Origin: a virus
Taxonomy: Duplodnaviria; Heunggongvirae; Uroviricota; Caudoviricetes
Strand: one strand, 5' to 3'
Virus record (IMG/VR): IMGVR_UViG_3300014208_000025
Coordinates: 180,967-244,966 of that record
Length of the DNA: 64,000 nt
The notes under the pieces are model-generated. The model worked only from the letters and a program-made list of their open reading frames with translations, was not told the origin of the DNA and made no database searches. The translations under genes and the position numbers were made by a program. This document shows, piece after piece, positions 26,024-62,233 of the stretch (position 1 is the stretch's first letter; each line of letters begins with the position of its first letter).

Positions 26024-26024
26024 A

Positions 26025-33148: not shown

Positions 33149-33222
33149 TGGTGGAGCCGAAGGGAATTGAACCCTTATCTGTTCAGTGCGAGTGAACTGT
33201 CCTACCGTTGAACGACGACCCC
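33149..33222 (-). tRNA. tRNA-Ala(CGC)
   Basis: GTTCA-CTCGCAC-TGAAC; G3:U70; ACCA. Confidence 0.9.
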
Positions 33223-33816
33223 ATATCCTTTGTATTCTTTTTGTTTTCCACAAATGACTCGTAACAGCATCGATGGTGATATTCCTTTTTCACGACAAAA
33301 TTTTCTCAATCCAACGATTTCTATTGGATTTCCATTTGAGTCATTCACCACGTATTTCTTTTTTACTCCTGAATTGGGCTTGGGAATACCTGTTACGGCT
33401 TTTTTCATTTTCGTAATCCAGTCATCACTCATTTTCTTTCCCCAGTTGGGATGATTCTTTCCACTCAGAGAAGCAGACATTTTGGCAACAGTTTCCGGCG
33501 TGGCTTTACATCCCAATCTACTGGCTCTTGGAGTTCTGCACATGTTATATCCATGTTCGTCTTTGAATGAATGTAGTTTCCGAATCCAATGTTCTTCTTG
33601 GTCCACCAATAACGTCTTAGAACAACGTTCAACAATTTCATAAACAAAACAATTCCCCCCATATTTGTTCCACGCATTTTGAAGGTATGGGTTAAAATGG
33701 TCGCCACGATTAAGAGAAAGTTTATGTTGGCTCCACCGTTTGTTTAACTTTCCAGTAGAACCAAGATATCGTTTTCCATTAACAACATTCCGAATAGCAT
33801 AAACACCTATGTTCAT
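33202..33816 (-). CDS. GIY-YIG homing endonuclease with NUMOD3 motifs (204 aa)
   Basis: GVYAIRNVVNGKRYLGST, RWSQH, GYNM; ETVAKMSASLSGKNHPNWGKK; stop lies inside tRNA-Ala(CGC). Confidence 0.9.
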   Translation of the reverse strand: MNIGVYAIRNVVNGKRYLGSTGKLNKRWSQHKLSLNRGDHFNPYLQNAWNKYGGNCFVYEIVERCSKTLLVDQEEHWIRKLHSFKDEHGYNMCRTPRASRLGCKATPETVAKMSASLSGKNHPNWGKKMSDDWITKMKKAVTGIPKPNSGVKKKYVVNDSNGNPIEIVGLRKFCREKGISPSMLLRVICGKQKEYKGYGVVVQR

Positions 33817-37099: not shown

Positions 37100-37183
37100 T
37101 GGTACCCCTGAGAGGAATTGAACCTCCAAAACTTCGGCTTTTAAGACCGTATGATGTGCCATTCTCAACTAAGTCACAGGGGC
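37100..37183 (-). tRNA. tRNA-Leu(UAA), short variable arm, enlarged D-loop
   Basis: CGGT-CTTAAAA-GCCG; ~6-nt variable region. Confidence 0.7.
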
Positions 37184-40428: not shown

Positions 40429-40510
40429 TGGTGCAGGTGGGGGGATTCGAACCCACATTTTCATCCAATTACGATTCATACTGCTTAGAAGGCAGCGTCG
40501 GTACACCTGC
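40429..40510 (-). tRNA. Rearranged tRNA-Arg(UCU): no D-arm at the normal position, D-like hairpin after the anticodon arm
   Basis: GCAGGTG-taccgac-GCTGC cttctaa GCAGT-atgaa-TCGT aattgg ATGA-aaat-T arm-CACCTGC-ACCA. Confidence 0.7.
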
Positions 40511-40572
40511 ATTTTTGAAATTGCTTTGGAGTCGGATATAGTTTTTGAGAATTCTAACTATACTTATTGAAT

Positions 40573-41322
40573 ATGAACATGTTAATTTCAAAATCTGAAT
40601 TAGATTCCAAATCAAGTCGAGAACTTATCCCATTGGAATGTTTAGAATGTCACAATACTCATCATCGAACTAAAAATACCATACTTAGAATTCTGAATGG
40701 TTCATTAAAAGGAACACAAAAAGGGTGTTTTTGTTCTCATAAATGCGCCGAATTATTCAAATACAAAGCATCTGTTTTTTCCACTACATGTGGAGAGTGT
40801 AATAAAGATATTACCAAATACAAAACAGACGAAAAAATCAAAAATTTTTGTTCATATTCGTGTCGAGCAAAATATTGGAACAAAAACAGAGAATGGTCAA
40901 ACAAACATAACAGGTCAAAATTAGAAGTATGGATTGAAGAACAATTAACCGAATTGTATCCAACACTTGAAATTCATTACAACAAAACAAATGCCATTGA
41001 TATTGAGTTGGACATTTACATTCCATCCTTGAAGTTGGCCTTTGAACTTAACGGAATTTTTCACTATAAACCAATTTACGGAAAAGAAAGGCTTAAAGTA
41101 AAACAAACCAATGATGCCCGAAAAATTCAGTCGTGTTTAGAAAAAAATGTTGATTTATGTATTATTGATACAACATCTCAAATTTCTTTTAGAGAAAAAA
41201 CAAGTCAAAAATTTTTCGACATTATATCAACAACCATCAATCAAAATCGGTGCCGGATGCGGGCTTTGGCACCCGTCAATTCATGCGACGGTCAGGAAAT
41301 CGAAGAGCAAAAACTCCCCTAA
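40573..41322 (+). CDS. Zn-finger plus Vsr/DUF559-like homing endonuclease (249 aa)
   Basis: CLEC, FCSHKC, CGEC, FCSYSC; ELDIYIPSLKLAFELNGIFHY. Confidence 0.75.
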   Translation: MNMLISKSELDSKSSRELIPLECLECHNTHHRTKNTILRILNGSLKGTQKGCFCSHKCAELFKYKASVFSTTCGECNKDITKYKTDEKIKNFCSYSCRAKYWNKNREWSNKHNRSKLEVWIEEQLTELYPTLEIHYNKTNAIDIELDIYIPSLKLAFELNGIFHYKPIYGKERLKVKQTNDARKIQSCLEKNVDLCIIDTTSQISFREKTSQKFFDIISTTINQNRCRMRALAPVNSCDGQEIEEQKLP

Positions 41323-41397
41323 TATGGCCGCTTTCAAGACATGGGTTTTTTCTGGTCGCCTTTACTAAGGGCGTGGTTAAACTAATCCGGCAGAAAT

Positions 41398-41474
41398 TGG
41401 TGCAGTCGGAGGGAATCGAACCCTCTCCATATCCGGTTAAAGGCCGGGTGCCGGTCCATCATGGCTTCAACTGC
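41398..41474 (-). tRNA. tRNA-Lys(UUU) with C33
   Basis: CCGG-CCTTTAA-CCGG; ACCA. Confidence 0.8.
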
Positions 41475-41710
41475 AAAAACAAGATACGATTTTTTAGGTC
41501 TGCTTATTAAGAGGATTTTTTTGAGTTGCTGTTCGTATCTTAAATTCCTATTGATGTTGCTACTAACACATTATTCGAATAATGTGTGTTTTGCCTTATT
41601 TAACCTCTCCTAGAGGCACACCAATGTTTGTACAAATTGGTCAATTTGTCACGCCGAAATTCATTATAAAGAAGAAATCATACCCATTTACAAAAGAAAA
41701 ACGATTTTAT

Positions 41711-41927
41711 AGAGCTAACGTTGTCCTCATAACCCAACATGCGTCACGACGTTAATCGTGAAACCACCGTTTTACAACGATGTTATTTTTCGGTGTTGAT
41801 TTATTCTCGAAGTGAGGTTTCCACCCACATTTCCGAACGTAATGCCGGCACATTTATTCTCAGTGGACTGGCGGGATTGTGGCCACCAAGAGCCCGTTAC
41901 TCCATCCAATACTCTTATGTTACTCGA
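41711..41927 (-). ncRNA. Unassigned multi-stem RNA (~215 nt)
   Basis: Terminal GAGTAAC/GTTAGCTC pairing, several hairpins, GAGAATAAAT twice. Confidence 0.4.
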
Positions 41928-41932
41928 AATTT

Positions 41933-42023
41933 TGGCTGGGGCCAGAGGACTCGAACCTCCATACGGATTTCTCCGAATACACGACATTAACAGTGTCGTC
42001 TCTTACCGTTAGAGTAAACCCCA
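41933..42023 (-). tRNA. tRNA-Asn(GUU) with long variable arm
   Basis: CGACA-CTGTTAA-TGTCG; variable hairpin CGGA-GAAA-TCCG; G73. Confidence 0.85.
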
Positions 42024-42031
42024 ATTGAAAC

Positions 42032-42120
42032 TGGTCAGAGTGGTGGGGGTCGAACCCACAGAGTCATGATGACACCCGGTTCCAGGCCGGGGTGGCTGCC
42101 AATTACCTTCTTACACTCTG
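42032..42120 (-). tRNA. tRNA-Pro(UGG) with long variable arm and C33
   Basis: CCCGG-CCTGGAA-CCGGG; variable hairpin GTCA-TCA-TGAC; C1-G72, A73. Confidence 0.75.
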
Positions 42121-42126
42121 ATGAAA

Positions 42127-42354
42127 TTATTTTACTTCAACTGCTATTTTCTTTTCGATTAATTTTCGAGCCAATCTGAATTCAAAATAGAATTCGACTC
42201 CCGCTTTCACCAACCGTCTGCCACTTTCCCCCAAAAGACCTGTCAGAAAAATAGCTTCTGGGTCAATTATTTTTACCCGAATAGCATTTGGAACATATGC
42301 CATTTTTGAAAGTTGTTCTGGAACAACCATGAATTGTAACTTGATTCGTTTCAT
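42127..42354 (-). CDS. Hypothetical protein (75 aa)
   Basis: ORF track. Confidence 0.55.
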   Translation of the reverse strand: MKRIKLQFMVVPEQLSKMAYVPNAIRVKIIDPEAIFLTGLLGESGRRLVKAGVEFYFEFRLARKLIEKKIAVEVK

Positions 42355-42360
42355 AAATTA

Positions 42361-42507
42361 TTATTTTCTGGATAATTCTTGAGTTAACTCTGACACTCTG
42401 GCCGACATTTGGTTGCGTTGTTCCGCCGTCAACTCTTTATCCGAAATTCGTCGGTTAAGGCGACTGATACGATTACGTTTCTTACCTACAATGTGTGCTG
42501 CATTCAT
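42361..42507 (-). CDS. Small basic protein (48 aa)
   Basis: MNAAHIVGKKRNRISRL..., SD AAGGAAA. Confidence 0.5.
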   Translation of the reverse strand: MNAAHIVGKKRNRISRLNRRISDKELTAEQRNQMSARVSELTQELSRK

Positions 42508-42533
42508 ATACTGTTTCCTTTTGGTTGTTGAAA

Positions 42534-42607
42534 TGGTCGTCATATCTGGAATCGAACCAGAGCCTCCCACTTATCGAGTGGGCACAATACCATTATGTTA
42601 TACGACG
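42534..42607 (-). tRNA. tRNA-Ile(GAU) with C33
   Basis: CCCAC-TCGATAA-GTGGG. Confidence 0.85.
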
Positions 42608-42615
42608 TTAAATTT

Positions 42616-42717
42616 TGTCCCGTAACCAAATTGTCATTCAAAGAAATGCGGTTGGAAGCAGAATGACCTATGGAAAGAGCGAAGTGCTCAGTCCGGCATT
42701 GCACCGCTTACGGGACA
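42616..42717 (-). ncRNA. Unassigned RNA with 10-bp terminal stem and T-loop-like hairpin
   Basis: TGTCCCGTAA/TTACGGGACA; CGG-TGCAATG-CCG; GAGC/GCTC; GTCATTC/GAATGAC. Confidence 0.5.
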
Positions 42718-42849
42718 GAAATTAAAAAACTCGTTCGCCTTGTTTATCCCAGCATGTAACTTGTCCATAACGTTACATGTTCCTTTCGACAAAACTAAGT
42801 TTTGGAACTGAATACGAGTCACGATTCAGTACTTTTTACTTTCGTAAAT

Positions 42850-42926
42850 TGGGGTGGCAGACGGGTAATGCTCCCGTTCCAATTCCTTCACAGGGAATGA
42901 TGCTAAACTTTCACACTCCTACCACC
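42850..42926 (-). tRNA. tRNA-His(GUG)
   Basis: TTCC-CTGTGAA-GGAA; G-1:C73; variant T-loop AGCATTA. Confidence 0.9.
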
Positions 42927-42936
42927 ATACAAAAAA

Positions 42937-43035
42937 CTTCCGGAAACTTGAGGGATTCGAACCGGTTCCGTTGCAACGGAATTCTCTCGCCCGATTTATA
43001 GGACTTTGCCATGCCTTGTACTTCAGCAGTTTCCG
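42937..43035 (-). pseudogene. Degenerate class II tRNA-like sequence
   Basis: CGGAAACT/AGTTTCCG stem, GGTTCGAATCC, long variable hairpin; anticodon arm malformed, no CCA. Confidence 0.45.
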
Positions 43036-43039
43036 AAAT

Positions 43040-43113
43040 TGGTGTCCCAACCGAGAATCGAACTCGGGTATTTTGATTGAGAATCAAACATTCTACCACT
43101 AAACTATAGGGAC
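43040..43113 (-). tRNA. tRNA-Glu(CUC)
   Basis: TTGA-TTCTCAA-TCAA. Confidence 0.9.
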
Positions 43114-43118
43114 AAATT

Positions 43119-43278
43119 TGGTCGAGCCTGATGGTTTCCAACCATCGTTGTCATCGGATTGAACTAACATGTATATCAATCCGTCACATCACACACTTCT
43201 TACCATCCCTTACGGGGTAGGAGTTTCACGTCTAGCGACGTTGTGAAACCATGCTGCCTTGGACTAGGCTAAGACTCG
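43119..43278 (-). ncRNA. 160-nt CCA-ended RNA with tRNA top half and five internal hairpins
   Basis: Acceptor CGAGTCT/AGGCTCG+ACCA stacked on GATGG-TTGGAAA-CCATC. Confidence 0.6.
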
Positions 43279-43443
43279 AATAAATGATAAGTTGAAAATT
43301 TCATTCAACACGTTGGTATTAAAAACCCCAATCACATTACTTTCGTAATCACATTGACCAGTATCCAACACACTTGAGGTTGCGTCTAGCACGTTTTCTA
43401 ACAGTTATGCTGTAAGTATTTCTTACTTCCGCCATTATCAAAG

Positions 43444-43519
43444 TGGCAGTCCCACGGGGAATCGAACCCACGATCTGGAGAGTGAAAATCTCCCGAATTA
43501 ACCGTTATTCGATAGGACC
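43444..43519 (-). tRNA. tRNA-Glu(UUC)
   Basis: GGAGA-TTTTCAC-TCTCC. Confidence 0.9.
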
Positions 43520-43726
43520 ATTAAATCAGTGTGGGTGTTTGACAGATGCCTATCACAGTAGGACTCATCAATTGATGAAAACCATGCCCTTAACCCACGA
43601 ATATGTTTTTGAAAATCAGACAGCATAAACAACGAATCAAACACAACAGCACAAAGGCCGGCCGATATTTCGGATTTCTCCTAATCTGTCGCTAGTTCTT
43701 GTGGTCAACTGTTTACACTATCAAAG

Positions 43727-43802
43727 TGGTCCCAACTCCCGGTTACGCTCCGGGCTTTACAGATTTTCAGTCTGTCACTTTCACTAGATTAGTTTAGTTG
43801 GG
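43727..43802 (-). tRNA. tRNA-Phe(GAA)
   Basis: ACAGA-CTGAAAA-TCTGT; variant T-loop AGCGTAA. Confidence 0.85.
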
Positions 43803-43807
43803 GTAAA

Positions 43808-43881
43808 TGGCTCCCTCTGATGGTTACGCTCCACCGCTCTACGCTTCAAAGGCGTCGTTGCTACTATTACAACAAGAGGGA
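43808..43881 (-). tRNA. tRNA-Gln(UUG)
   Basis: ACGC-CTTTGAA-GCGT; T-loop AGCGTAA; U1-A72, G73. Confidence 0.85.
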
Positions 43882-43890
43882 ATACTAAAT

Positions 43891-43965
43891 TGGCGGACAT
43901 GATGGGAATCGAACCCACCTGAATTCGCAGACAACGAATCCGATGACCCAGCCTCTTCCATGTCC
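43891..43965 (-). tRNA. tRNA-Asp(GUC), unusual U37
   Basis: ATTCG-TTGTCTG-CGAAT; G73. Confidence 0.75.
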
Positions 43966-43971
43966 GAAAAT

Positions 43972-44048
43972 TGGCCGCCTTTGCCAGACTTTACCTTGGC
44001 ATTTTTAGCTCTAATAGCTAACGTCCTAGATTTTAGACGAGCAGGCGA
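43972..44048 (-). ncRNA. CCA-ended cloverleaf-shaped RNA without tRNA consensus (77 nt)
   Basis: TCGCCT/AGGCGG+CCA enclosing CGTC/GACG, TTAGCT/AGCTAA, TGCCA/TGGCA hairpins. Confidence 0.5.
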
Positions 44049-44156
44049 TAAAAATCGATACTGTAAAGAGCCGCCCTTCCATTTTCAGTGGAGGTCTGAG
44101 CAGAGTTTGTCTCTTACTGTCCCCTTCCGGAGCTTAGTTCTTTACTAGCGTCAAAA

Positions 44157-44230
44157 TGGAGCAGGTGAACGGAATCGAACCGTCACTTTAACATTGGCAA
44201 TGTCATGGGCTACCACTACACTACACCTGC
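44157..44230 (-). tRNA. tRNA-Gly(GCC)
   Basis: GACA-TTGCCAA-TGTT; U73. Confidence 0.95.
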
Positions 44231-44235
44231 ATTTG

Positions 44236-44376
44236 TTATTGTTTGTTTCTCAACTTCCGAATTCGTTCCTTGCGTTCACGTTCAATTTCTTGAAGTTCAC
44301 GTCGTTGTGCCTCAACGAATTTCTGAAACGAACCAGCGGGTTGACCACAGAATTCATCTATTGTTTTTGTTTTCAT
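44236..44376 (-). CDS. Small basic protein (46 aa)
   Basis: MKTKTIDEFCGQPAG...; start moved downstream of tRNA-Gly. Confidence 0.5.
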   Translation of the reverse strand: MKTKTIDEFCGQPAGSFQKFVEAQRRELQEIERERKERIRKLRNKQ

Positions 44377-44380
44377 AAAT

Positions 44381-44455
44381 TGGAGCACATGGAGAATTTT
44401 GAAATCTCGACGTTCACGTTGGAAGCGTGACACTCTGCCTCTGAGTTACATGTGC
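44381..44455 (-). tRNA. tRNA-Gly(UCC)
   Basis: TCACG-CTTCCAA-CGTGA; U73. Confidence 0.9.
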
Positions 44456-44462
44456 GTAAAAT

Positions 44463-44550
44463 TGGTGCAAGTTGATGGAGTTGAACCACCCGAGCCTGTT
44501 AAGGCAACACGTTTACAGCGTGTACCGCTACCTCTACGGGATAAACTTGC
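44463..44550 (-). tRNA. tRNA-Tyr(GUA)
   Basis: ACACG-CTGTAAA-CGTGT; class II arm. Confidence 0.9.
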
Positions 44551-44695
44551 ATTTTTGAAAAACAGACGGAAAACTCTACTTAAACGAATAATTATTTTCG
44601 TTGTCCTGTAGCACTTGCTTTACAATACGGTGTAATACAGCAAGTGTTCCTACTGACCGGCTTCCTAATTCTCCAACACGGAGTTTCTGTTAAAT

Positions 44696-44774
44696 TGGTG
44701 CGCCGAGTGGGTAATGCTCCCACACGAATCGTTCGGGTAAGAACCGAGTGCCCGTCTATTGTGGCTTTCGACGC
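44696..44774 (-). tRNA. tRNA-Lys(CUU)
   Basis: TCGG-TTCTTAC-CCGA; T-loop AGCATTA. Confidence 0.8.
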
Positions 44775-44976
44775 ATTTGATAATTTTTATTTTCTACCTC
44801 CGATGTGTTACTACTACACTACAAGAATTATCAGAAACTTGGTAGGCTTCGTTCCTACGACTCGGGATGTAATCTTTGGTGAGGAAGGAATCGCTTATTC
44901 TAACTCTCATCTTTGACAACTCCAATTAGCTAGATTTCAATCACCATGTTGATTCATGGATTTCCTCATACAAAAA

Positions 44977-45050
44977 TGGTGGTAATACAAGGAATCGAAC
45001 CTTGGTCACGCAATTATCAGTTGCGGGCTTTTCCATTAAGCTATATTACC
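44977..45050 (-). tRNA. tRNA-Ile(GAU)
   Basis: CGCAA-CTGATAA-TTGCG. Confidence 0.95.
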
Positions 45051-45052
45051 AT

Positions 45053-45131
45053 TGGACCCCACTGACAGGATTTAAGCCTGTGTTTCTGCTCTATAACGGA
45101 ACAGCGTCCTAACCATTGAACGACCGTGGGA
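45053..45131 (-). pseudogene. Degenerate tRNA (anticodon ambiguous, possibly UUA)
   Basis: D-arm GTTCAATGGTTAGGAC, T-loop CTTAAAT, 6-bp stem closing CGTTATA; irregular acceptor. Confidence 0.45.
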
Positions 45132-45429
45132 AATTCAGAGGAAGGCTGCTAAGCCAAATCCTCTTGTTCTCAATACCCGACCCAAATCAGATAATTTGCA
45201 GTCTGATTTTCATGAGTTGTCCTGCAAGGACAGGTTGGTATGTATTGAAATTTAATTAAATCCAATTGAAGAGTTTGTAAACACACCAAACTCCATGCGG
45301 ATAATGGTTTTCAGGATGATAATCGTTTCTTAAAACCGAAACGTTCCAATCCCTTGACATCTGAAAATGCCATTTCAGTATTCGTATATTGATTATTAGG
45401 TTGCTCATATTAAGTTGTTTGTTGATTAT

Positions 45430-45515
45430 TGGTGCTGCCGGTGGGATTCGAACCCACGATGTTTGTTTACCTGATTAAAAGTCAGGTGCCTTCGGCCAAC
45501 TCGGCGCACGACAAC
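45430..45515 (-). tRNA. tRNA-Lys(UUU), enlarged (12-nt) variable region
   Basis: CCTGA-CTTTTAA-TCAGG. Confidence 0.85.
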
Positions 45516-45528
45516 ATACTATAAAAAC

Positions 45529-45604
45529 TGGCTGGAGCAGCAGGATTTGAACCTGCATATCATTGTTTAACAAACAATTTCATTACCAATTATGATACAC
45601 TCCA
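45529..45604 (-). tRNA. tRNA-Asn(GUU)
   Basis: ATTGT-TTGTTAA-ACAAT; G73. Confidence 0.9.
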
Positions 45605-45669
45605 ATTAAACGGTTACGCTCAACCGAAAAGTCTCACAATTTCTATGCGGGTTAGTGATACCCTTAAAT

Positions 45670-45745
45670 TGGCAGACGGGATAGGAATTGAACCTACAAC
45701 ACGGAGTTTTGGAGACTCTATCGCCACCTTGGAACATGCCCGTCT
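45670..45745 (-). tRNA. tRNA-Trp(CCA)
   Basis: GAGT-CTCCAAA-ACTC; G73. Confidence 0.9.
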
Positions 45746-45787
45746 ATGTTAAAAATTGTTGCGTGTCTCTCCCCACGCCTGTCAAGC

Positions 45788-46291
45788 CTACATGGGCTTT
45801 TTTAAATTTCTTTGTTTCAATTTTAATCCTTCTAAATATAATTCTTCTTGTTTAAATAACTCATCATCAAGTGGATTATAACCTTTCTTTTTCCAGCGGC
45901 AACGTCTAACATTTCTCAATCTCGATTTTGCTTGTTGAAATGTAATTGGAATTTCTTCTTTTATTTTATTGTGTTCTCCGACGTGGCATTTTCTACAGAG
46001 AGTTTTCAAATCTGAAACGGTTACGTCATACAAATTCTTATACGAAATATGATGAACATCTAAATGTTTATCCGTTCCACATACTTCACACATTAGATTC
46101 ATTAAAAGCTTTTTGGACCTTAATTCTTTCCAATGGTCAGATTTCAAATACACATTCCAGTAATAATCTGAATCTGTTAAATAAAAACTTGTTTTTTGTT
46201 TGCCTACTGAAATTCTGGTTTTTACAAATTTGATTTGTTTAGGTTTATAATATTTGATTGCTTTGGAAATTATATTAGATGATGAATACAT
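45788..46291 (-). CDS. HNH endonuclease (167 aa)
   Basis: CEVCG...LDVHHISY...DLKTLCRKCH. Confidence 0.85.
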   Translation of the reverse strand: MYSSSNIISKAIKYYKPKQIKFVKTRISVGKQKTSFYLTDSDYYWNVYLKSDHWKELRSKKLLMNLMCEVCGTDKHLDVHHISYKNLYDVTVSDLKTLCRKCHVGEHNKIKEEIPITFQQAKSRLRNVRRCRWKKKGYNPLDDELFKQEELYLEGLKLKQRNLKKPM

Positions 46292-46502
46292 GGTTAAAGT
46301 ATATCACACCGTCTAATCAAAGTCAATACATTTTATATTAACAACGAACGCCATGTTATCTCTGAGCTAATATCAGAGTCCGGGTTCTGGTTTTACCCAT
46401 AACACCCCATGACCGATAAGTGATTTTTTATACCATAGCACCAGTTTTACTGGAGGCTCACTGTAAGAGTTCTAAGCCTATACTAACAAAATTCACACTA
46501 AT

Positions 46503-46544
46503 AAAAAACAAAAACCGCCAACTTCTTTCGGAGTCGGCGGTTTT
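46503..46544 (-). terminator. Intrinsic terminator (candidate attenuator terminator)
   Basis: AAAACCGCCGACT-CCGAAAGA-AGTTGGCGGTTTT followed by a U-rich tract. Confidence 0.75.
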
Positions 46545-46568
46545 CAAAGTCTTCTATTCGTCTGAGCG

Positions 46569-46703
46569 TTATCCGCCGCTCCTTCCTGCTTTATCAAATT
46601 GATTATATGACTTATGCCACATCGGCGTTTCGACAGAACAGGCGTCCTCACCCTCAATCGAGGGGATACTTGGCAACCGTTCTAATATCGTTCTTGTTTT
46701 CAT
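46569..46703 (-). CDS. Putative leader peptide (44 aa)
   Basis: ATG 14 nt after the -10 hexamer; MKTRTILERL...GRSGG-stop; ends 25 nt before the terminator. Confidence 0.4.
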   Translation of the reverse strand: MKTRTILERLPSIPSIEGEDACSVETPMWHKSYNQFDKAGRSGG

Positions 46704-46716
46704 CGTTACACCAATA

Positions 46717-46744
46717 ACTATATCACGAGTTTGAAAAGTGTCAA
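46717..46744 (-). promoter_or_regulatory. Sigma70-type promoter
   Basis: TTGACA-N16-TATAGT. Confidence 0.7.
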
Positions 46745-46934
46745 GCTTTTTAAGAATCTTTTTCTGACCCGAAGATTCTTTCTAAAAGTCGTTCTTCGGG
46801 ACTCTTTGAGAGATACTTTTCATACTTCGCTTCGATAGCCGTTTGGTCATCTACTGTATTAACATCATAACCCAAAGGTGGTTGATTGTCAATATCTTTT
46901 TTCATCTTTGTGTAAATAGTTGATTTTCAGTTAT

Positions 46935-48443
46935 TTATGTTACGTCTCGTTTACCACATCTCGTACATTGATAAACGCTAACATTTCGTTGAGATTTTCC
47001 AATGTGGCTATGTCGTTTTGGCATGATTTCCCAATTATGACCATCTTTTTCACAATCTCCCTCTTCATATTCAAAATCGTTTTCCGGCGGCATCTTAGCG
47101 TCATATGCTTGTCGGGATTTATCAAAATTTATATCCTTCCAAAAACTTTCTTCGACACCTACTGGTTCAGTTGGTTTGGCTTGTTTGGATTTCTCTTCCC
47201 AAATCTTATCCAGTTCACCAATAATGAAATCAGCCGTTTTCTTGATAACTGTTAGGTTTTGACGAATGGAATCTTTATTGGCACCCTTCAATGCCAAATA
47301 GTTCGCTTGATGTTCCACCGGCAATCCATAGTATTTAATAACAATGAAGGAAACCGACTCGGCCTGTAACTCAACGGTTGCATGTGACAAGTTTTCTTCG
47401 CCCACATAAAATGGTGAAGTCTTCTTGAAATGAAGCAGTTCATGAGCAATCTCGTGAATGACGGTGGCCGCTTTGTTAACTCCGGCAACATCACTTGAAA
47501 TATTAATGTGATCGCCTGCGGCGTAACCTTGTTCCCCACGTTTGGATGCTTCTTGACCCATTTTTATACCCATGTTATCCGCGAGTTCTTTCGTGCATTC
47601 AAAAAGTTCTTCGGCCTTGATATTCGGTTCATTGCTACCGTGCCATTCAGGCTCAGTGATTTCTCCGCGAGCATCAATTGATTCCGTGTCCGAAATATCA
47701 AACACGGATACTGCCATGAAACGCATGTAACGTTGTGGCTTCTTTTCTGCCGAACCATCATCAGGACCCGTTCCCGCCAATGGAGATTGTGGAATTGGAG
47801 ATACCGTAGCCTTTTGGGTATCGTCTTCCTTTTTCTTGACGGTGATAGGAGCCAGAATGGAAATGGATTTAGCACCCTTCTTGACACGACGATGAAACTT
47901 TTCTTCCCATTGTTTGTAACCAGCCACGCGAGTAGCCTTTGGATTCTGCAAATAAATCAACAAGGTGTTGTGGAAACTATAACCACGAAATTTGGCATTG
48001 AAGGTCAAAAAGTTTTTGACTACGGCGGAGATACTGGCCGCATCAACTGCGGTGCTCAGTTCATCAATGAAGCCATCAATCTTCTGACCCAATTCATCCT
48101 TCTTGGAAAGGTTGTCGGTGTTCTGGAGAAACTCAGGAATTTCTTCAACCTTTTCAATGAACTTTTCCAATGGGGATTTACTGATTCCGGATAACACTTC
48201 TTGAGCCTTGCGTAATTGAGATTGGTCAATTGTCCACGAATTGATAATACCATCCCAACGGAAACCAGCCTCTTTCAACTTGTTCTTGTTACGGAATGTT
48301 TCGGCAGATTGACTCTTACGGTCGTCGGCATCGGATACCACGACAAGTTTGCCTTCGTGACGTTTAAGAATCAGGTTTTCAAGGATAATATGATCTTCTT
48401 CAAAGCATTCACGAATAAGGTTTTTGATGTCGAGTATTTCCAT
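46935..48443 (-). CDS. ArdC-like ssDNA-binding plus zincin protein with N- and C-terminal extensions (~502 aa)
   Basis: YSFHNTLLIYLQNPKATRVAGYKQW...VKKGAKSI.I; HEIAHELLH..ELQAES; C-terminal CEKDGH...CTRC. Confidence 0.8.
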   Translation of the reverse strand: MEILDIKNLIRECFEEDHIILENLILKRHEGKLVVVSDADDRKSQSAETFRNKNKLKEAGFRWDGIINSWTIDQSQLRKAQEVLSGISKSPLEKFIEKVEEIPEFLQNTDNLSKKDELGQKIDGFIDELSTAVDAASISAVVKNFLTFNAKFRGYSFHNTLLIYLQNPKATRVAGYKQWEEKFHRRVKKGAKSISILAPITVKKKEDDTQKATVSPIPQSPLAGTGPDDGSAEKKPQRYMRFMAVSVFDISDTESIDARGEITEPEWHGSNEPNIKAEELFECTKELADNMGIKMGQEASKRGEQGYAAGDHINISSDVAGVNKAATVIHEIAHELLHFKKTSPFYVGEENLSHATVELQAESVSFIVIKYYGLPVEHQANYLALKGANKDSIRQNLTVIKKTADFIIGELDKIWEEKSKQAKPTEPVGVEESFWKDINFDKSRQAYDAKMPPENDFEYEEGDCEKDGHNWEIMPKRHSHIGKSQRNVSVYQCTRCGKRDVT

Positions 48444-48485
48444 ATGGACATAAATATGGGAAGAAAGGGTAGGATACAAAGAAAC

Positions 48486-48653
48486 TTAGTTGCCATCCAT
48501 GATGACTTGCTGTGGAAAGTAAATTTCGACATCATTCGACTTATCCATTTCCGCCAATTCTTCGGCTGTATAATAGTTTCCATCAGCTTTCCAAGCCTGT
48601 TTTCCTTCTGCATAAGCACACCAAGGGGAGTTTTCGAAGTCTTCTTTTGTCAT
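48486..48653 (-). CDS. Small hypothetical protein (55 aa)
   Basis: MTKEDFENSPWCAYAEG..., read manually. Confidence 0.5.
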   Translation of the reverse strand: MTKEDFENSPWCAYAEGKQAWKADGNYYTAEELAEMDKSNDVEIYFPQQVIMDGN

Positions 48654-48659
48654 AAAAAT

Positions 48660-48735
48660 TGGAGCCCAAGGACGGTACTGCCCCGTCGCCTCAACTTTAC
48701 CAAAGTCGTGTACTAACTTTTATACTACATGGGCC
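48660..48735 (-). tRNA. tRNA-Thr(GGU)
   Basis: CGACT-TTGGTAA-AGTTG; variant T-loop GGCAGTA. Confidence 0.85.
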
Positions 48736-49152
48736 TTGAAAATAAGAAACATCGTGACTTTCCGTTTATCCTAGTAGTCTTGCGTTCGGGACAGGCACAA
48801 GGTTGTTCATCACAATCCTAGTCACACGATTGGCCACTTTTGCCGTTTTATGTTTCTCTAAATGACATGGGTGGCGGTGATTCCAAACCAACCTATTCCT
48901 GTTCGGGTGAGGTTTCCCTCTTGAAACAAGTAATCAAAGCGTTATTCGTTTTCACGAACCCTTCGAGCTTCGGTGCGTACCCTTAGCACGCCTTTGTCAA
49001 AAATTCTTGTACGGATTCAATCTTAGTCTTGTTACCTTGACCATATTCAATCAAGGATTGTATGGTTTCTTCCGAAGCATCAAACTTCGTTACTCGTTCA
49101 CCGAGTATTTCATTCCACAACTGACTGAATCGTTCGTATTTCATATTCAAAT

Positions 49153-49234
49153 TGGTAGGCATGGCAGGACTTGAACCTGCATTTTCATTCCAATTATACG
49201 ACTACCGGTTCGAAGCCGGTGCTAATACATGCCC
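49153..49234 (-). tRNA. Rearranged tRNA-Arg(UCG), same architecture as 40429..40510
   Basis: GGGCATG-tattagc-ACCGG cttcgaa CCGGT-ag-TCGT ataattgga ATGA-aaat-GCAGG ttcaagt CCTGC-CATGCCT-ACCA. Confidence 0.7.
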
Positions 49235-49235
49235 G

Positions 49236-49439
49236 TTACTTAACACTCCAAAATCCAAAAAGATAACCAACGACACCACCAACAACACTTCCAACTCCAC
49301 CGAAAACCGTTCCAATGGCCGCTCCACCAGAAGCACATGCGATTCCTGTCGTCATTTTATCCGAAAAGGTTTCCCATTTCATACCGTCAAAAATCATCGG
49401 CCTGTCGAGAATGTTCTTCTCGGTTTGCCTGTCTTTCAT
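49236..49439 (-). CDS. Small glycine-zipper membrane protein (67 aa)
   Basis: GGAAIGTVFGGVGSVVGGVVG. Confidence 0.55.
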   Translation of the reverse strand: MKDRQTEKNILDRPMIFDGMKWETFSDKMTTGIACASGGAAIGTVFGGVGSVVGGVVGYLFGFWSVK

Positions 49440-49962: not shown

Positions 49963-50038
49963 TGGTGGGTCATCCGGGACTCGAACCCGGAATAAAAGCT
50001 TCGTAGGCTTCTGTGATATCCAATTTCACCAACAACCC
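49963..50038 (-). tRNA. tRNA-Arg(ACG)
   Basis: GAAGC-CTACGAA-GCTTT; canonical D-arm GGTG-AAATTGGATA-TCAC. Confidence 0.95.
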
Positions 50039-53207: not shown

Positions 53208-53393
53208 TCATTCACCTTTAATAAAGGTCTTTTTGACCACTTTAATTTTTTTGGCTATTTCTTCCACCGTATCGTTTGGATGCCAGAGTTCTTTAGAATC
53301 CAACATGGCTTGAACATACTTCTCCAAGTCTTGAATAGCCTTGTAAGTTTCCTTGGGTTTGATTCTTTCAAATTCGTCAATGTTTGTTATCAT
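53208..53393 (-). CDS. Hypothetical protein (61 aa)
   Basis: Start moved to MITNIDEF, coupled to the nadE stop. Confidence 0.5.
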   Translation of the reverse strand: MITNIDEFERIKPKETYKAIQDLEKYVQAMLDSKELWHPNDTVEEIAKKIKVVKKTFIKGE

Positions 53394-54186
53394 ATAGTTT
53401 GAAAACCGGAATTGGATTGAGTTTATGTTGACCGGCATTATGCCATTTTTGGTAACTTTTAATGACTTCCCTTTGTCTAAGGGATAATTCATCGGGGTTG
53501 TATCCAACCATACCAACTCCATCAAGAAACCACATAACCCACTCCAATTCCTCGTAACTAGCACCCAATTGTTGTTCATCTGTACGAGTGTCTTCCCACA
53601 AACCATCTGTAGGGATGGCGTTAGTTAATTCAGGCAATACACCCAACTCACGACACATGGCCCGAACTTCGGTCTTGGTCAAATCGCCAATTGGGGAAAG
53701 ATCAACACCGCCGTCTCCATATTTGGTGAAGAAACCTACTCCGTAATCTTCCACCTTGTTACCGGTTCCAATGACAAGACCTTCGTTGACGGTCGCCACT
53801 TGATACAGAGCAATCATACGTAAACGACTTTTGGTGTTCGCATAAGCAAGAGGCATATCAAAATCCTTGCTCAAATAATTGATCGTTGTTTTGAAAACCT
53901 CAAACGTAGCGGTCAAATCAATACGAACAGATTGAACGTTTTTATACAAACATTCCAATTGAAGCCAGTTTATATGAAGCATACCACGGTCGGTTTGGTC
54001 TTCCTTGGAATGACACGGCATGGTGACACAGATGGTTGGAAGGCCGGTCTTGGCACAGAGGGTGGAAACAAGAGCCGAATCAACGCCACCGGACACTCCG
54101 ATGACGAGCGCCTTACGTTTGTTGGTTTCGGCATAGTTCTTCAACCACGCCACAATCTGATCGGATATCTGTTTTATGTCTTTCAT
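53377..54186 (-). CDS. nadE: NH3-dependent NAD+ synthetase
   Basis: SGGVDSA PP-loop, NTKSRLRM, GTGNKVE..VGFFTKYGDGGVD..PIGDLTKTEV, PTDGLW...DE.QLG.SY. Confidence 0.95.
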   Translation of the reverse strand: MKDIKQISDQIVAWLKNYAETNKRKALVIGVSGGVDSALVSTLCAKTGLPTICVTMPCHSKEDQTDRGMLHINWLQLECLYKNVQSVRIDLTATFEVFKTTINYLSKDFDMPLAYANTKSRLRMIALYQVATVNEGLVIGTGNKVEDYGVGFFTKYGDGGVDLSPIGDLTKTEVRAMCRELGVLPELTNAIPTDGLWEDTRTDEQQLGASYEELEWVMWFLDGVGMVGYNPDELSLRQREVIKSYQKWHNAGQHKLNPIPVFKLYDNKH

Positions 54187-57165: not shown

Positions 57166-58115
57166 TGGAGGGAATTCTACATTGAGAAGGTTCACCAAAG
57201 AAGTCAAGGATTTCACGGAAGTTCCCCGAAGGTCTATTCCTAACAGTTTTGAGAGTTGCTTCGGTTGAGACTACACCGTTGCGTATCGGCCCTCAGAGAT
57301 TATCGTAGCCTTGCGAGCTACCTTCCTCTTCATCCACATTGACCCGCCACGGGGACGGTATCATGTAGCCGATAAGTCTGCCTTTGAATGGTGGCATGTC
57401 CATTAAAACGATAACATATTCCGCGTTTATTCAAACGTCTGCCTTGCGAGCAGTAAGTACCGCGAAGTACTCCGTTCACTTCCACACGAACAACTTTCAC
57501 CTTGCGAGTTACGGTTGACTGAGTTACCTTACGGCCTCAGCATTAAGACTTTTTCAGTCATCGCTAGCACCGACTTTGCTTTTTAATGATAGTGGCTTTG
57601 ACACCACAACACATAGTTCCAATAACTATTGCTCTACTTTGAGCTATATCGAACCTAACCTGCTGGTGCGGTGCTTGCTGTTTCATAAACCTTGCGGAAT
57701 ACAAAATCCAGCACCAGCACTAATCTTTCCTTGCGGTACTCAATCCATCCTTCAAGATTCCGTCCTCAGTGTAAGCCTTGGCCGGTTTCTATCAGATTGT
57801 CACGAAGCTTTTGACTGCTAATCTCAAACCTCATTACTTAGCTTAAATCTCAACTCTCACTGTTGCGCTCGGCAGATGGTAGTGCTCGTCGGCATCGTTA
57901 GTAGTATGTTGCCGGAGTTACCCACAACATACATTTTCCATCCCAGCTTTAAGTGTAACACCCACCTTACGGCGATGTTTACAGATTTTGCTCGTTGTAT
58001 AGGCGTCCAAACCTTTCGGCTTGGTGGGCACCCGTTAGGGAGTGTCCCTTTGGCCCCATTACTGGGGTTTATCTTTATCCACCCTTGCGGGTGAAACGGA
58101 GGCCATACCCCCCGT
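57166..58115 (-). ncRNA. Giant structured ncRNA (~950 nt), GOLLD-like
   Basis: No credible ORF; dense hairpins with recurring GCAA, GAAA, GTAA and TTCG tetraloops; ends CCTCCA; inside a phage tRNA array. Family call from size and context only. Confidence 0.6.
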
Positions 58116-59084: not shown

Positions 59085-59235
59085 TGGTGTCAGTAGATGG
59101 ATTCGAACCACCATGTCAAATTTCATGTTTACATCCCACAATGGTAAACCATTGTTTTGACTTTCCACCAGCATAACGTTCGTCTGGCGTTTATCATTAC
59201 TCTCGTCTCCGTCTATCTCATTCCGGCATACTGAC
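59085..59235 (-). ncRNA. Expanded tRNA-Leu-like RNA (151 nt) with multibranch insert replacing the anticodon arm
   Basis: GTCAGTA/TACTGAC+ACCA (same acceptor as Leu-CAA 37190), T-arm GGTGG-TTCGAAT-CCATC; internal GCCAG/CTGGT, GTCAAA/TTTGAC, ACAATGG/CCATTGT. Confidence 0.65.
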
Positions 59236-59572: not shown

Positions 59573-59647
59573 TGGCGCCCCATGCGGGATTCGAACCCGC
59601 ACAAAATTCTTTTAGAGAGAACTGCACTGGCCGTTGTGCTAATGAGG
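59573..59647 (-). tRNA. Candidate amber suppressor tRNA (CUA)
   Basis: Loop CT-CTA-AA at canonical positions 32-38; stem pairs well only when shifted by one nt (8-nt loop); intact D/T arms, G73, CCA. Confidence 0.55.
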
Positions 59648-59730
59648 CATTGGAAGAAAGAATGATTGCGTCAGTGATTTTGTCACCGTTGCCTGAAACC
59701 TATGTAAAGTTGTTCTTCATTACGCCAATA

Positions 59731-61402: not shown

Positions 61403-62233
61403 TCATATTTGAAATCCTTTATAGGCATCCAAATCATTTCCAATCACACCGTAAAACTCATTTATTAACTCCACCATTTCCGGAGTAATCCTCTCTTTCA
61501 TCCCAACAATCATGGTTGGAGGAATTGACTTGACACCGTAGAAGGCTTCAGCAATCGACCCAGCAATTGCGGCAATTGTATCAGTATCGCCCTTGGTATA
61601 GACCGCATTACGGATGGCCGATTCATAATCCGTTGACTCCATGAAACAAGTCAATGCCTGTGGAGCCGAAAGGTTACAACGAATGTTTGGCTTTGGATGT
61701 TGACGCCATTGTTCAACGGTTAAATCCAACATGTGACCATATTGTTCTTCCACGTAGGCTTGAATTTGAAGTTTGGTGTTTCCATTGAGGGCCATATGAA
61801 TAGCCGACGTAATTGATAACACTCCACGTCTTGATTCAGGAGAACAATGTGTCATCTTAATACTGTCGTTGGCCATCAATTCAACCATTCTTATATTTGG
61901 ATAAAATAACGCAATCGGACTACAACGCATCATAGCCCCATTGGCATAACTGTTATTAACAGTAATATCCGAACAATTGACCCATTCTTGAAATCCGCTG
62001 CCATAACCACGTCCCGGATACTTCAAGGCCCATTCCTTGTAACGAATATCAAATCGACATTCTCGGTTAACGGGGTGTAACAACGCATCTGCGGTCGCAC
62101 AAGTTAAAACGGTGTCATCGGTAAAACGTGACCACTGTTTTGCGAAGAGTGGAAAATTTCGGTCATCCACCCAATTCAAACGACTGCCTTCATAAGGCGA
62201 GCCAACTATATCACCGATAATAGCACCGACCAT
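61403..62233 (-). CDS. ADP-ribosylglycohydrolase (ARH/DraG family)
   Basis: GAIIGDIVGSPYE, FTDDT, NGAMMR, ITH, GDTDTIAAIAGSIAEA. Confidence 0.92.
   Translation of the reverse strand: MVGAIIGDIVGSPYEGSRLNWVDDRNFPLFAKQWSRFTDDTVLTCATADALLHPVNRECRFDIRYKEWALKYPGRGYGSGFQEWVNCSDITVNNSYANGAMMRCSPIALFYPNIRMVELMANDSIKMTHCSPESRRGVLSITSAIHMALNGNTKLQIQAYVEEQYGHMLDLTVEQWRQHPKPNIRCNLSAPQALTCFMESTDYESAIRNAVYTKGDTDTIAAIAGSIAEAFYGVKSIPPTMIVGMKERITPEMVELINEFYGVIGNDLDAYKGFQI

What the first reader, a model, noticed from the sequence alone, without database searches (positions are those of the whole stretch)
40429..49234. Two Arg tRNAs with the D-arm apparently moved to the variable-arm position
Genes at 40429-40510 (UCU) and 49153-49234 (UCG) share one layout: 7-bp acceptor, only 7 nt where the D-arm should be, a normal anticodon arm, then a conserved TCGT/ATGA hairpin with loop (AT)AATTGG(A), AAAT, T-arm and ACCA. 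Acceptor and anticodon stems differ in sequence but keep pairing. The moved loop matches the D-loop of the canonical Arg(ACG) at 49963 (AAATTGGATA), including the GG that docks on the T-loop. The arm order acceptor-anticodon-D-T is a topologically permuted cloverleaf that could still build an elbow. I do not recall this architecture being described, but could not search. UCG and UCU read rare Arg codons (CGA, AGA).
Basis: partly seen in the sequence, partly recalled or inferred. Interest (0 to 1): 0.85.

Follow-up and report, generated by a model that had tools for sequence, protein, structure and literature searches.

The report
Phage arginine tRNAs with rewired D-arm
The two odd genes are real arginine tRNAs of a giant phage whose D-arm is built from two distant segments that pair around the anticodon arm; this design is widespread in phages, standard gene finders mostly miss it, and I could not find it described.

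Summary
The window is part of a 279-kb IMG/VR jumbo-phage record with about 43 tRNA genes. Across 73 aligned relatives, three bases of the 7-nt "linker" pair instead with the three bases just 5' of a D-loop-like UAAUUGGA. Two of those pairs are 100% paired with four Watson-Crick types each, and RNAalifold finds the helix unaided.

The D-stem therefore encloses the anticodon arm. Canonical segment 10-21 sits 3' of the anticodon arm, and the linker supplies U8, A9, 22-25 and 26. The tertiary-core bases are kept: U8, A14, G18G19, and a 15:48 Levitt pair that covaries (A-U 141, G-C 22). The arginine determinant A20 is present in 137/138 Arg members.

I parsed 173 distinct members, mostly Arg, some Ile, rarely Tyr, Trp or CAU. 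They include unannotated copies in Felix O1 and 263 cultured-phage records. ARAGORN finds 11 of 167. Ten literature searches or readings found no description. Earlier reports of this scan reached the same reading on other phage DNA. Charging, expression and 3D fold are inferred, not shown.

The parts
40429..40510 (-). tRNA-Arg(UCU) gene with rewired D-arm, 82 nt including the encoded CCA (40429-40431) and A73 (40432)
   Evidence: Sequence. Rfam tRNA 34.1 bits with the D-arm deleted. Family model R1 78.3 bits.
40504..40510 (-). Gene 1 acceptor stem, 5' strand. It pairs with 40433-40439 (7 of 7 Watson-Crick).
   Evidence: The acceptor pairs covary in the family.
40497..40503 (-). Gene 1 7-nt 5' connector UACCGAC, read as U8, A9, C('22'), CGA('23-25', 40498-40500) and C('26')
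   Evidence: CGA pairs with UCG at 40472-40474. Family covariation in A2 columns 11-13 with 40-42.
40480..40496 (-). Gene 1 anticodon arm, anticodon UCU at 40487-40489
40475..40479 (-). Gene 1 spacer AUGAA between the anticodon stem and the returning D-stem strand. Its length varies in the family (mostly 3-8 nt).
40472..40474 (-). Gene 1 UCG, the returning D-stem strand (canonical 10-12 equivalent)
   Evidence: Three Watson-Crick pairs with 40498-40500.
40464..40471 (-). Gene 1 U13 plus D-loop-like AAUUGGA (A14, A15, U16, U17, G18, G19, A20)
   Evidence: Invariant or nearly invariant columns in A2. A20 is present in 137/138 Arg members.
40457..40463 (-). Gene 1 connector UGAAAAU ending in U48, the partner of A15
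   Evidence: The 15:48 pair covaries: A-U 141, G-C 22.
40440..40456 (-). Gene 1 T-arm (GUGGG UUCGAAU CCCCC, with one U.C mismatch at 50:64)
   Evidence: The same stem occurs in Maribacter phage Panino.
49153..49234 (-). tRNA-Arg(UCG) gene with rewired D-arm, 82 nt including CCA (49153-49155) and A73 (49156)
   Evidence: Sequence. Rfam tRNA 37.5 bits. R1 76.0 bits.
49221..49227 (-). Gene 2 7-nt 5' connector UAUUAGC, read as U8, A9, U('22'), UAG('23-25', 49222-49224) and C('26')
   Evidence: U-A and A-U pair with 49197-49198. The third position is G.G, or G-C if that G bulges, as in a related subtype.
49204..49220 (-). Gene 2 anticodon arm, anticodon UCG at 49211-49213
49197..49199 (-). Gene 2 GUA, the returning D-stem strand (10-12 equivalent). 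The spacer AGUC lies at 49200-49203.
49189..49196 (-). Gene 2 U13 plus AAUUGGA (D-loop equivalent)
49164..49188 (-). Gene 2 connector AUGAAAAU (49181-49188, ending in U48) and T-arm (49164-49180)
49963..50038 (-). Canonical tRNA-Arg(ACG) of the same phage, used as comparator. It has an ordinary D-arm with loop AAAUUGGAUA.
   Evidence: Rfam 56 bits. R1 matches only its T-arm.

Best explanation
Both genes encode elongator arginine tRNAs, reading AGA(/AGG) and CGA(/CGG). They belong to a widespread phage family whose D-domain is circularly permuted. After U8-A9 the chain runs straight down the strand that corresponds to canonical 22-25, through N26, into the anticodon arm. After the anticodon arm and a short spacer it runs back up as the strand that corresponds to 10-12(13). 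It then forms the D-loop (A14 R15 Y Y G18 G19 A20) and passes through a short connector ending in Y48 into the T-arm. The D-stem is therefore a long-range helix stacked on, and enclosing, the anticodon arm. The three new junctions (9 to 22, 44 to 10, 21 to 48) join residues that are neighbours in the canonical L-shape, so the usual tertiary core and elbow can form. Host ArgRS would charge the RNA through A20, C35, U/G36 and A73, and the tRNAs supply codons for which the phage has no canonical tRNA. Shown here: the helix, the conserved core bases, the 15:48 covariation, and identity elements that track the anticodon. Inferred: the L-shaped fold, expression, processing, charging and decoding.
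For: 1) The family exists. A loose pattern search found more than 119 viral loci with the same layout. I parsed 173 distinct sequences from 140 loci.

2) The long-range D-stem is supported on a MAFFT alignment of 73 members that was not fitted to any structure. Columns 11:42 are paired in 73/73 (CG 50, UA 14, GC 7, AU 2). Columns 12:41 are paired in 73/73 (GC 31, CG 15, UA 14, AU 13). Columns 13:40 are paired in 50/73. RNAalifold predicts this helix without being told. In an anchor-based test independent of pairing, 283 of 315 cells pair against a shuffled mean of 162 (sd 7.5), and 96-118 at shifted registers.

3) The tertiary core is kept. UA at positions 8-9 is invariant, as are U-A14 and G18G19. 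The 15:48 pair is A-U in 141 and G-C in 22, with 2 purine mismatches.

4) Identity elements track the anticodon. The base after G19 is A in 137/138 Arg members but in 5/35 non-Arg members. N73 is A in 28/28 Ile members. The bacterial Arg identity set is A20, C35, U/G36 and A/G73 (PMC9976931).

5) Model R1 scores the two window genes at 78.3 and 76.0 bits and all other tRNAs of the phage at 30 bits or less.

6) There is demand for these tRNAs. In 209 long ORFs AGA is 25% and CGA 17% of Arg codons, and the phage has no canonical UCU or UCG tRNA.

7) The design is maintained in cultured phages of Proteobacteria, Actinobacteria and Bacteroidota hosts. One subtype occurs in 263 phage records.
Against: The long-range helix is only 3 bp. 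In gene 2 only 2 of 3 positions pair in the family register. Single-sequence folding of either window gene does not recover the helix. No RNA 3D prediction tool was available, so the L-shape rests on conserved core bases and geometric argument. Gene 1 has a U.C mismatch in its T-stem. Some arrays also carry a canonical Arg(UCU) gene (L150, L205), so these genes are not always the only decoder.
Confidence: 0.78

Rival explanations
1. One reading: the whole D-arm moved as a self-contained hairpin (TCGT/ATGA closing the AAUUGG loop) into the variable-arm position, and the 7 nt after the acceptor stem are an unpaired spacer.
For: Both window genes can draw a 4-bp hairpin that includes a G.U pair. 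The minimum-free-energy fold of gene 2 contains it. About 13% of family members can form 4 of 4 such pairs.
Against: The two hairpins occupy different alignment columns. Across the family this pairing equals shuffled controls (2.88 against 2.90). Its informative pairs are 12-48% paired. Its 5' strand is the same set of bases that covary with the 5' connector.
Confidence: 0.04
2. These are D-armless tRNAs of the mitochondrial kind. The anticodon stem is merely extended, the connectors are flexible, and no canonical tertiary core or rigid elbow forms.
For: In two dimensions the fold is a three-way junction with an extended anticodon helix, as proposed for mt-tRNA-Ser(AGY) (PMC4013460, listed; PMC7609411).
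Against: Mitochondrial D-armless tRNAs lack the D-loop. Here U8, A14, G18G19 and a canonical T-loop are invariant, and 15:48 covaries as a Levitt pair. A20 is kept specifically in Arg members.
Confidence: 0.08
3. These are tRNA-like RNAs that do not decode: decoys for host tRNA-cleaving defences, regulatory RNAs, homing-endonuclease relics or pseudogenes.
For: They sit among HNH and GIY-YIG endonuclease genes. The Felix O1 paper lists two tRNAscan-SE calls as 'pseudo', though at other coordinates than this gene. One cultured-phage record labels its copy 'tRNA-OTHER'. Some arrays also hold a canonical isoacceptor.
Against: All four helices covary. The anticodon loops are canonical (U33, A37/A38). 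aaRS identity elements track the anticodon. CCA is encoded in this phage. AGA and CGA are heavily used and have no other phage tRNA. Conservation spans phages of three host phyla.
Confidence: 0.07
4. ARAGORN's model for the UCG gene: a 98-nt class-II-like tRNA (49153-49250) with an upstream acceptor strand, a normal D-arm and a long variable arm.
For: ARAGORN reports it.
Against: Its acceptor stem has two mismatches, against 7 of 7 for the 82-nt model. No such alternative exists for the UCU gene. Rfam and R1 both place the 5' end at 49234. Relatives share the 82-nt layout.
Confidence: 0.02

Closest known systems
Canonical bacterial and phage tRNA-Arg (class I cloverleaf, Rfam RF00005), for example the Arg(ACG) gene at 49963-50038 of this phage
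   Same: It shares the 7-bp acceptor stem, the 5-bp anticodon arm, the T-arm, N73 and CCA. It shares the D-loop sequence A14 A15 U U G18 G19 A20, plus U8, U48 and the Arg identity bases.
   Different: The D-stem strands are not joined by the D-loop. Segment 10-21 lies 3' of the anticodon arm, so the D-stem encloses the anticodon arm. The Rfam model must delete the D-arm to match.
Metazoan mitochondrial D-armless tRNAs, for example mt-tRNA-Ser(AGY) (PMC4013460, PMC7609411)
   Same: There is no local D hairpin. A short connector joins the acceptor and anticodon stems, and the anticodon-side helix is extended.
   Different: The mitochondrial forms have lost the D-loop and the G18G19/T-loop elbow contacts and are flexible. 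Here the D-loop, the Levitt pair and the T-loop are all kept. Those forms work with co-evolved organellar factors, whereas these must work with ordinary bacterial machinery.
Non-canonical bacterial and phage tRNAs with 8/4 or 9/3 acceptor branches (allo-tRNAs, PMC5389517)
   Same: They are natural departures from the standard cloverleaf found in bacteria and phages by metagenome mining.
   Different: Those change helix lengths in the acceptor/T branch and keep the normal order of arms. Here the order of strands in the D-domain is permuted.
Circularly permuted and split tRNA genes (Cyanidioschyzon merolae, Nanoarchaeum; from my own knowledge, not checked here)
   Same: Segments are permuted relative to the textbook order.
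   Different: In those cases the gene is permuted and processing restores a standard mature tRNA. Here the mature RNA itself would carry the permuted connectivity, with the acceptor ends in the normal place.
Viral tRNA-like structures (for example TYMV TLS; mentioned in PMC9976931)
   Same: An L-shape mimic is built from non-standard strand connectivity.
   Different: TLSs are 3' ends of plant-virus genomic RNAs and do not decode. These are stand-alone genes in tRNA arrays with canonical anticodon loops.

Membership tests
tRNA (Rfam RF00005, clan CL00001) | Score at or above the curated gathering threshold (29 bits) over the full model | tested here: met
   34.1 bits (40432-40510) and 37.5 bits (49156-49234), model positions 1-71.
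tRNA (Rfam RF00005, clan CL00001) | 7-bp acceptor stem, discriminator base and 3' CCA | tested here: met
   7 of 7 pairs in both genes, A73, CCA encoded. The pairs covary in relatives.
tRNA (Rfam RF00005, clan CL00001) | Anticodon arm with a 5-bp stem and a 7-nt loop carrying U33 and a purine at 37 | tested here: met
   CUUCUAA and CUUCGAA. The loop pattern is CU.AA in 90 of 105 members.
tRNA (Rfam RF00005, clan CL00001) | T-arm with the GTTCRANYC loop | tested here: met
tRNA (Rfam RF00005, clan CL00001) | Local D-arm hairpin (10-13 paired with 22-25 and closed by the D-loop) between the acceptor and anticodon stems | tested here: not met
   Only 7 nt lie there. The covariance model deletes 15 D-arm positions.
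tRNA (Rfam RF00005, clan CL00001) | Tertiary-core bases U8, A14, R15:Y48 and G18G19 | tested here: met
   All are present by sequence in both genes. They are invariant or covarying in the family. The contacts themselves cannot be tested here.
   Gene 1: CGA with UCG, 3 of 3. Gene 2: UAG with GUA, 2 of 3, with G.G or a bulged-G alternative. Family covariation.
   UAAUUGGA followed by a connector ending in AAAAU in both genes. R1 scores 78.3 and 76.0 bits, against 30 bits or less for canonical tRNAs.
Bacterial tRNA-Arg identity set (A20, C35, U/G36, A/G73; PMC9976931) | The identity nucleotides are present | tested here: met
   Both genes have A after G19, C35, U36 or G36, and A73. A20 is present in 137/138 Arg members.
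Bacterial tRNA-Arg identity set (A20, C35, U/G36, A/G73; PMC9976931) | Arginylation by ArgRS | not testable with these tools
   This needs an in vitro charging assay or an acid-gel northern blot.
Mitochondrial-type D-armless tRNA | Loss of the D-loop and of the G18G19/T-loop elbow contacts | tested here: not met
   The D-loop sequence and a canonical T-loop are retained.

The most novel reading that the evidence does not exclude
This is an undescribed structural class of elongator tRNA with a topologically permuted D-domain. It is fully functional with ordinary bacterial synthetases, EF-Tu and ribosomes. Phages of several bacterial phyla keep it for Arg and Ile (and rarely other) isoacceptors because the rewired core lets it escape something that reads the normal D-arm, such as host tRNA-cleaving defence nucleases or a phage's own host-tRNA shut-off. 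It would be a 'stealth' tRNA.
Probability: 0.15. Interest if true: 0.92.

Novelty: new variant of a known kind. Interest (0 to 1): 0.8.

Why it matters
[quoted passage not shown] If these RNAs are charged and decode, they are a natural counter-example used by hundreds of phages, including the classical Salmonella typing phage Felix O1. They would show that the L-shape tolerates a different strand topology in the D-domain.

This bears on how synthetases, RNase P, modification enzymes, EF-Tu and the ribosome read the tRNA core. It also offers a natural scaffold for orthogonal tRNA design.

There is a practical side too. Phage tRNA inventories and codon-usage arguments are systematically incomplete, because ARAGORN finds 11 of 167 members and 31 of 40 sampled GenBank records have no annotation at this gene. 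For example, the Felix O1 genome paper remarked that a tRNA for the favoured AGA codon was expected but missing (PMC3185647), and such a gene lies at 25951-26029 of NC_005282.

Tried and rejected
- Megablast of 14 kb around the genes against cultured phages gave no match.
- blastn of the UCG gene alone gave no match.
The exact hairpin is therefore not what is conserved.
- I looked for related phages through the ArdC-like protein at 46935-48479 and found no relatives.
- Single-sequence minimum-free-energy folds were uninformative. z-scores were -1.0 and -2.1, and gene 2 gave a non-tRNA fold.
- The plus-strand Rfam 'Plastid-ycf2' hits (19-23 bits against a threshold of 65.7) are the antisense of a tRNA-like sequence, not a finding.
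- ARAGORN's 98-nt model for the UCG gene was rejected (see rivals).
- In cellular genome contigs the pattern TAATTGGA..GGTTCRANTCC hit mostly coding sequence, Ser tRNAs and tmRNAs. Only 9 of the first 100 loci are family members, and eight of those nine lie in dense phage-type tRNA arrays on MAG contigs; ARAGORN found no tRNA genes in the ninth locus, L171. I therefore do not claim a cellular origin.
- No RNA 3D predictor was available.
- Literature: eight full-text searches and readings of two reviews and of the allo-tRNA paper found no description of this architecture. The library lacks most subscription journals, so absence is not proof.

Full report
**What the window is.** The window is bases 180967-244966 of a 279,228-bp IMG/VR virus record, estimated 79% complete. 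Baseplate, tail-fibre and other tail genes mark it as a tailed jumbo phage. Bases 31,900-59,700 hold a minus-strand tRNA array. ARAGORN genes there, and Rfam adds about six more plus a GOLLD RNA. HNH and GIY-YIG endonuclease genes, an ArdC-like gene and a NAD synthase gene are interspersed.

**The observation.**
- Each has a 7-bp acceptor stem, 7 nt, a standard anticodon arm (UCU or UCG), a 23-nt region containing AAUUGG, a T-arm, A73 and CCA.
- The Rfam tRNA model matches both over its full length, at 34.1 and 37.5 bits against a threshold of 29. It does so only by deleting the D-arm and inserting 20 nt in the variable region.
- ARAGORN misses the UCU gene. It forces the UCG gene into a 98-nt model with a mismatched upstream acceptor strand.

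**Relatives.** A looser pattern used the Arg anticodon loop, TTGG and the T-loop with long spacing.
- The 'linker' visibly varied together with the three bases just 5' of UAAUUGG, for example CCC/GGG, CGG/CCG, CUC/GAG, CAC/GUG and, in window gene 1, CGA/UCG.
- I parsed members using anchors that do not depend on this pairing, namely the start of the anticodon stem and the start of the loop motif. On that set 283 of 315 cells pair, against 162 ± 7.5 after shuffling and 96-118 at shifted registers.

**Structure tests on an unfitted alignment.** On a plain MAFFT alignment of 73 members (A2) the tool count gave three results:
- columns 11:42 paired in 73/73 (CG 50, UA 14, GC 7, AU 2);
- columns 12:41 paired in 73/73 (GC 31, CG 15, UA 14, AU 13);
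- columns 13:40 paired in 50/73.

RNAalifold predicted the same helix unaided. In the two window genes it does not even occupy the same columns.

**What the architecture is.** The 7-nt connector reads as U8, A9, four bases in the place of canonical 22-25, then N26. After the anticodon arm comes a spacer, mostly 3-8 nt. Then come three bases in the place of 10-12, a U in the place of 13, and A14 A15 U U G18 G19 A20. A connector of 5-13 nt follows, ending in A-U48, and then the T-arm. Canonical segment 10-21 has in effect been moved to the 3' side of the anticodon arm, and the D-stem now encloses that arm. In the known L-shape, residue 9 contacts 23, residue 45 contacts the 10-25 pair, and residue 21 lies by 8-14 and 46-48. 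This is textbook tRNA-Phe geometry from my own knowledge. All three new junctions therefore join neighbours. That the L-shape forms is an inference, but two sequence signals support it:
- U8, A14, G18G19 and the T-loop are invariant.
- The 15:48 Levitt pair covaries. It is A-U in 141 and G-C in 22 of 173 distinct members, with only two purine mismatches. The remaining eight include cases where my motif anchor slipped.

**Evidence that they are working tRNAs.** All four helices covary. Identity elements follow the anticodon. The base after G19 is A in 137/138 Arg members but in only 5/35 others, and all 28 Ile members have A73. These match the bacterial Arg set (A20, C35, U/G36, A/G73) and the Ile discriminator (PMC9976931). 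In this 39.9% G+C phage, AGA is 25% and CGA 17% of Arg codons in 209 long ORFs. The only canonical Arg tRNA is ACG.

**The family.** A covariance model (R1) separates the family cleanly.
- The two window genes score 78.3 and 76.0 bits. Every other tRNA of the phage scores 30 bits or less.
- In 100 viral loci, 95 hits score 50-91 bits. One Tyr member, supported by my own parse, scores 35 bits, within the canonical range of 35 bits or less.
- An anticodon-neutral pattern showed that the design also serves Arg ACG, CCU and GCG, Ile UAU and GAU, and one Trp. Single Tyr and CAU members came from the flanks of earlier loci.
- A variant with a 5-6-bp long-range stem (CCCGAC with GUUGGG) also exists.
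- Each phage carries only 2-4 such genes among many canonical ones.

**Cultured phages.** Members lie unannotated in the tRNA arrays of Limnohabitans phage DC31, Pseudomonas phage Bitten, Microbacterium phage Pumpernickel and Maribacter phage Panino. One lies in Felix O1 at 25951-26029, partly under the annotated start of an HNH gene. The Felix O1 subtype alone occurs in 263 phage records: Escherichia 138, Salmonella 54, Klebsiella 40, and also Streptomyces and Campylobacter phages. Of 40 sampled rows, 31 have no feature at the match, two records carry no annotation at all, six rows show only a protein-coding feature over the match, and one row has 'tRNA-OTHER'. ARAGORN detects 11 of 167 members.

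**Cellular genomes.** In contigs assigned to cellular genomes, the nine members found are on MAG contigs, and eight of them lie in dense phage-type tRNA arrays.

**The two window genes.** Gene 1 (UCU) has three Watson-Crick pairs in the long-range stem. Its closest cultured relatives are in Microbacterium and Maribacter phages. Gene 2 (UCG) belongs to a subtype with connector UA(N)UAGC. In the family register it has U-A, A-U and G.G. In the related subtype with connector UA(N)UGGC, the base 5' of that G is always a pyrimidine and the next base pairs with N26 in 12 of 14. A bulged-G register giving 5-6 pairs is therefore possible. The two genes are not recent copies, since their acceptor and anticodon stems differ throughout.

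**Known or new.** I found no description in eight full-text searches, two reviews of non-canonical tRNAs and tRNA identity, or the allo-tRNA paper. A 2024 paper states that all known bacterial tRNAs are canonical (PMC11551756 abstract). The Felix O1 genome paper expected an AGA tRNA and did not find one.

**Earlier reports of this scan.** Earlier AI reports reached the same 'rearranged D-arm' reading on Felix O1-like and other phages. I saw them after my own covariation tests. I used them only as the lead to Felix O1 and its paper, which I then checked myself.

**Why phages keep this design.** This is open. It could be neutral drift allowed by a robust core, spread with mobile tRNA arrays, or escape from factors that read the normal D-arm. 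None of these was tested here.

Noticed in passing
window 57262-57719 (-): A full-length GOLLD RNA (Rfam RF02032, 161.5 bits against a threshold of 150) lies inside the tRNA array.
   Followed up: no
window 59573-59648 (-): A tRNA with anticodon CUA (amber suppressor; ARAGORN labels it 'Pyl') scores 62.5 bits on Rfam. TAG ends only 13 of 209 long ORFs (TAA 116, TGA 80). Partial or late TAG recoding is possible.
   Followed up: partly
window 41933-42023 (-) and 45430-45515 (-): The tRNA-Asn(GUU) gene is 91 nt and the tRNA-Lys(UUU) gene 86 nt. These class-I identities carry insertions of about 21 and 14 nt in the variable region. The Asn insertion can form a CGGA/UCCG hairpin.
   Followed up: partly
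window 48663-48734, 45057-45130, 43894-43965, 37103-37183, 59088-59161 (all -): These are further tRNA-like genes with acceptor stems and CCA. Rfam or model R1 detect them, but ARAGORN does not, and the structures look atypical. Their identities were not worked out.
   Followed up: partly
window 45788-46291 (-), 33202-33816 (-): HNH and GIY-YIG/NUMOD3 homing-endonuclease genes are interspersed in the tRNA array. In Felix O1 the rewired Arg gene abuts, and partly underlies, an annotated HNH gene.
   Followed up: no
loci L040, L041, L042, L072, L088, L101, L117, L125, L133 (IMG/VR): This is a second rewired Arg(UCU) design. It has a 9-10-nt connector containing CCCGAC that pairs over 5-6 bp with GUUGGG after the anticodon arm, followed by UGGACGGCA. 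The helix shows compensatory changes (for example C-G to U-A in L088). It scores only about 31 bits with R1.
   Followed up: partly
loci L057, L105, L122, L131, L064, L329 and others (IMG/VR): The same rewired design carries non-Arg anticodons: Ile UAU and GAU (about 28 distinct sequences), CAU, Tyr GUA (with an extra helix in the spacer) and Trp CCA. In most Ile members the base after G19 is U rather than A.
   Followed up: partly
L268 (Pseudomonas phage Bitten, PV037721.1, 69066-69142): The rewired Arg gene lies exactly where the deposited tRNA numbering skips from tRNA0006 to tRNA0008. This suggests that the annotation pipeline called it and that it was then dropped.
   Followed up: no
loci L150 and L205 (MAG contigs): A canonical tRNA-Arg(UCU) and rewired Arg genes coexist in one array. 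The rewired form is therefore not always the only decoder of its codon family.
   Followed up: no
window 46935-48479 (-), 53377-54186 (-), 61403-62233 (-): An ArdC-like anti-restriction gene, a NAD synthase gene and an ADP-ribosylglycohydrolase gene lie within or beside the tRNA array.
   Followed up: no
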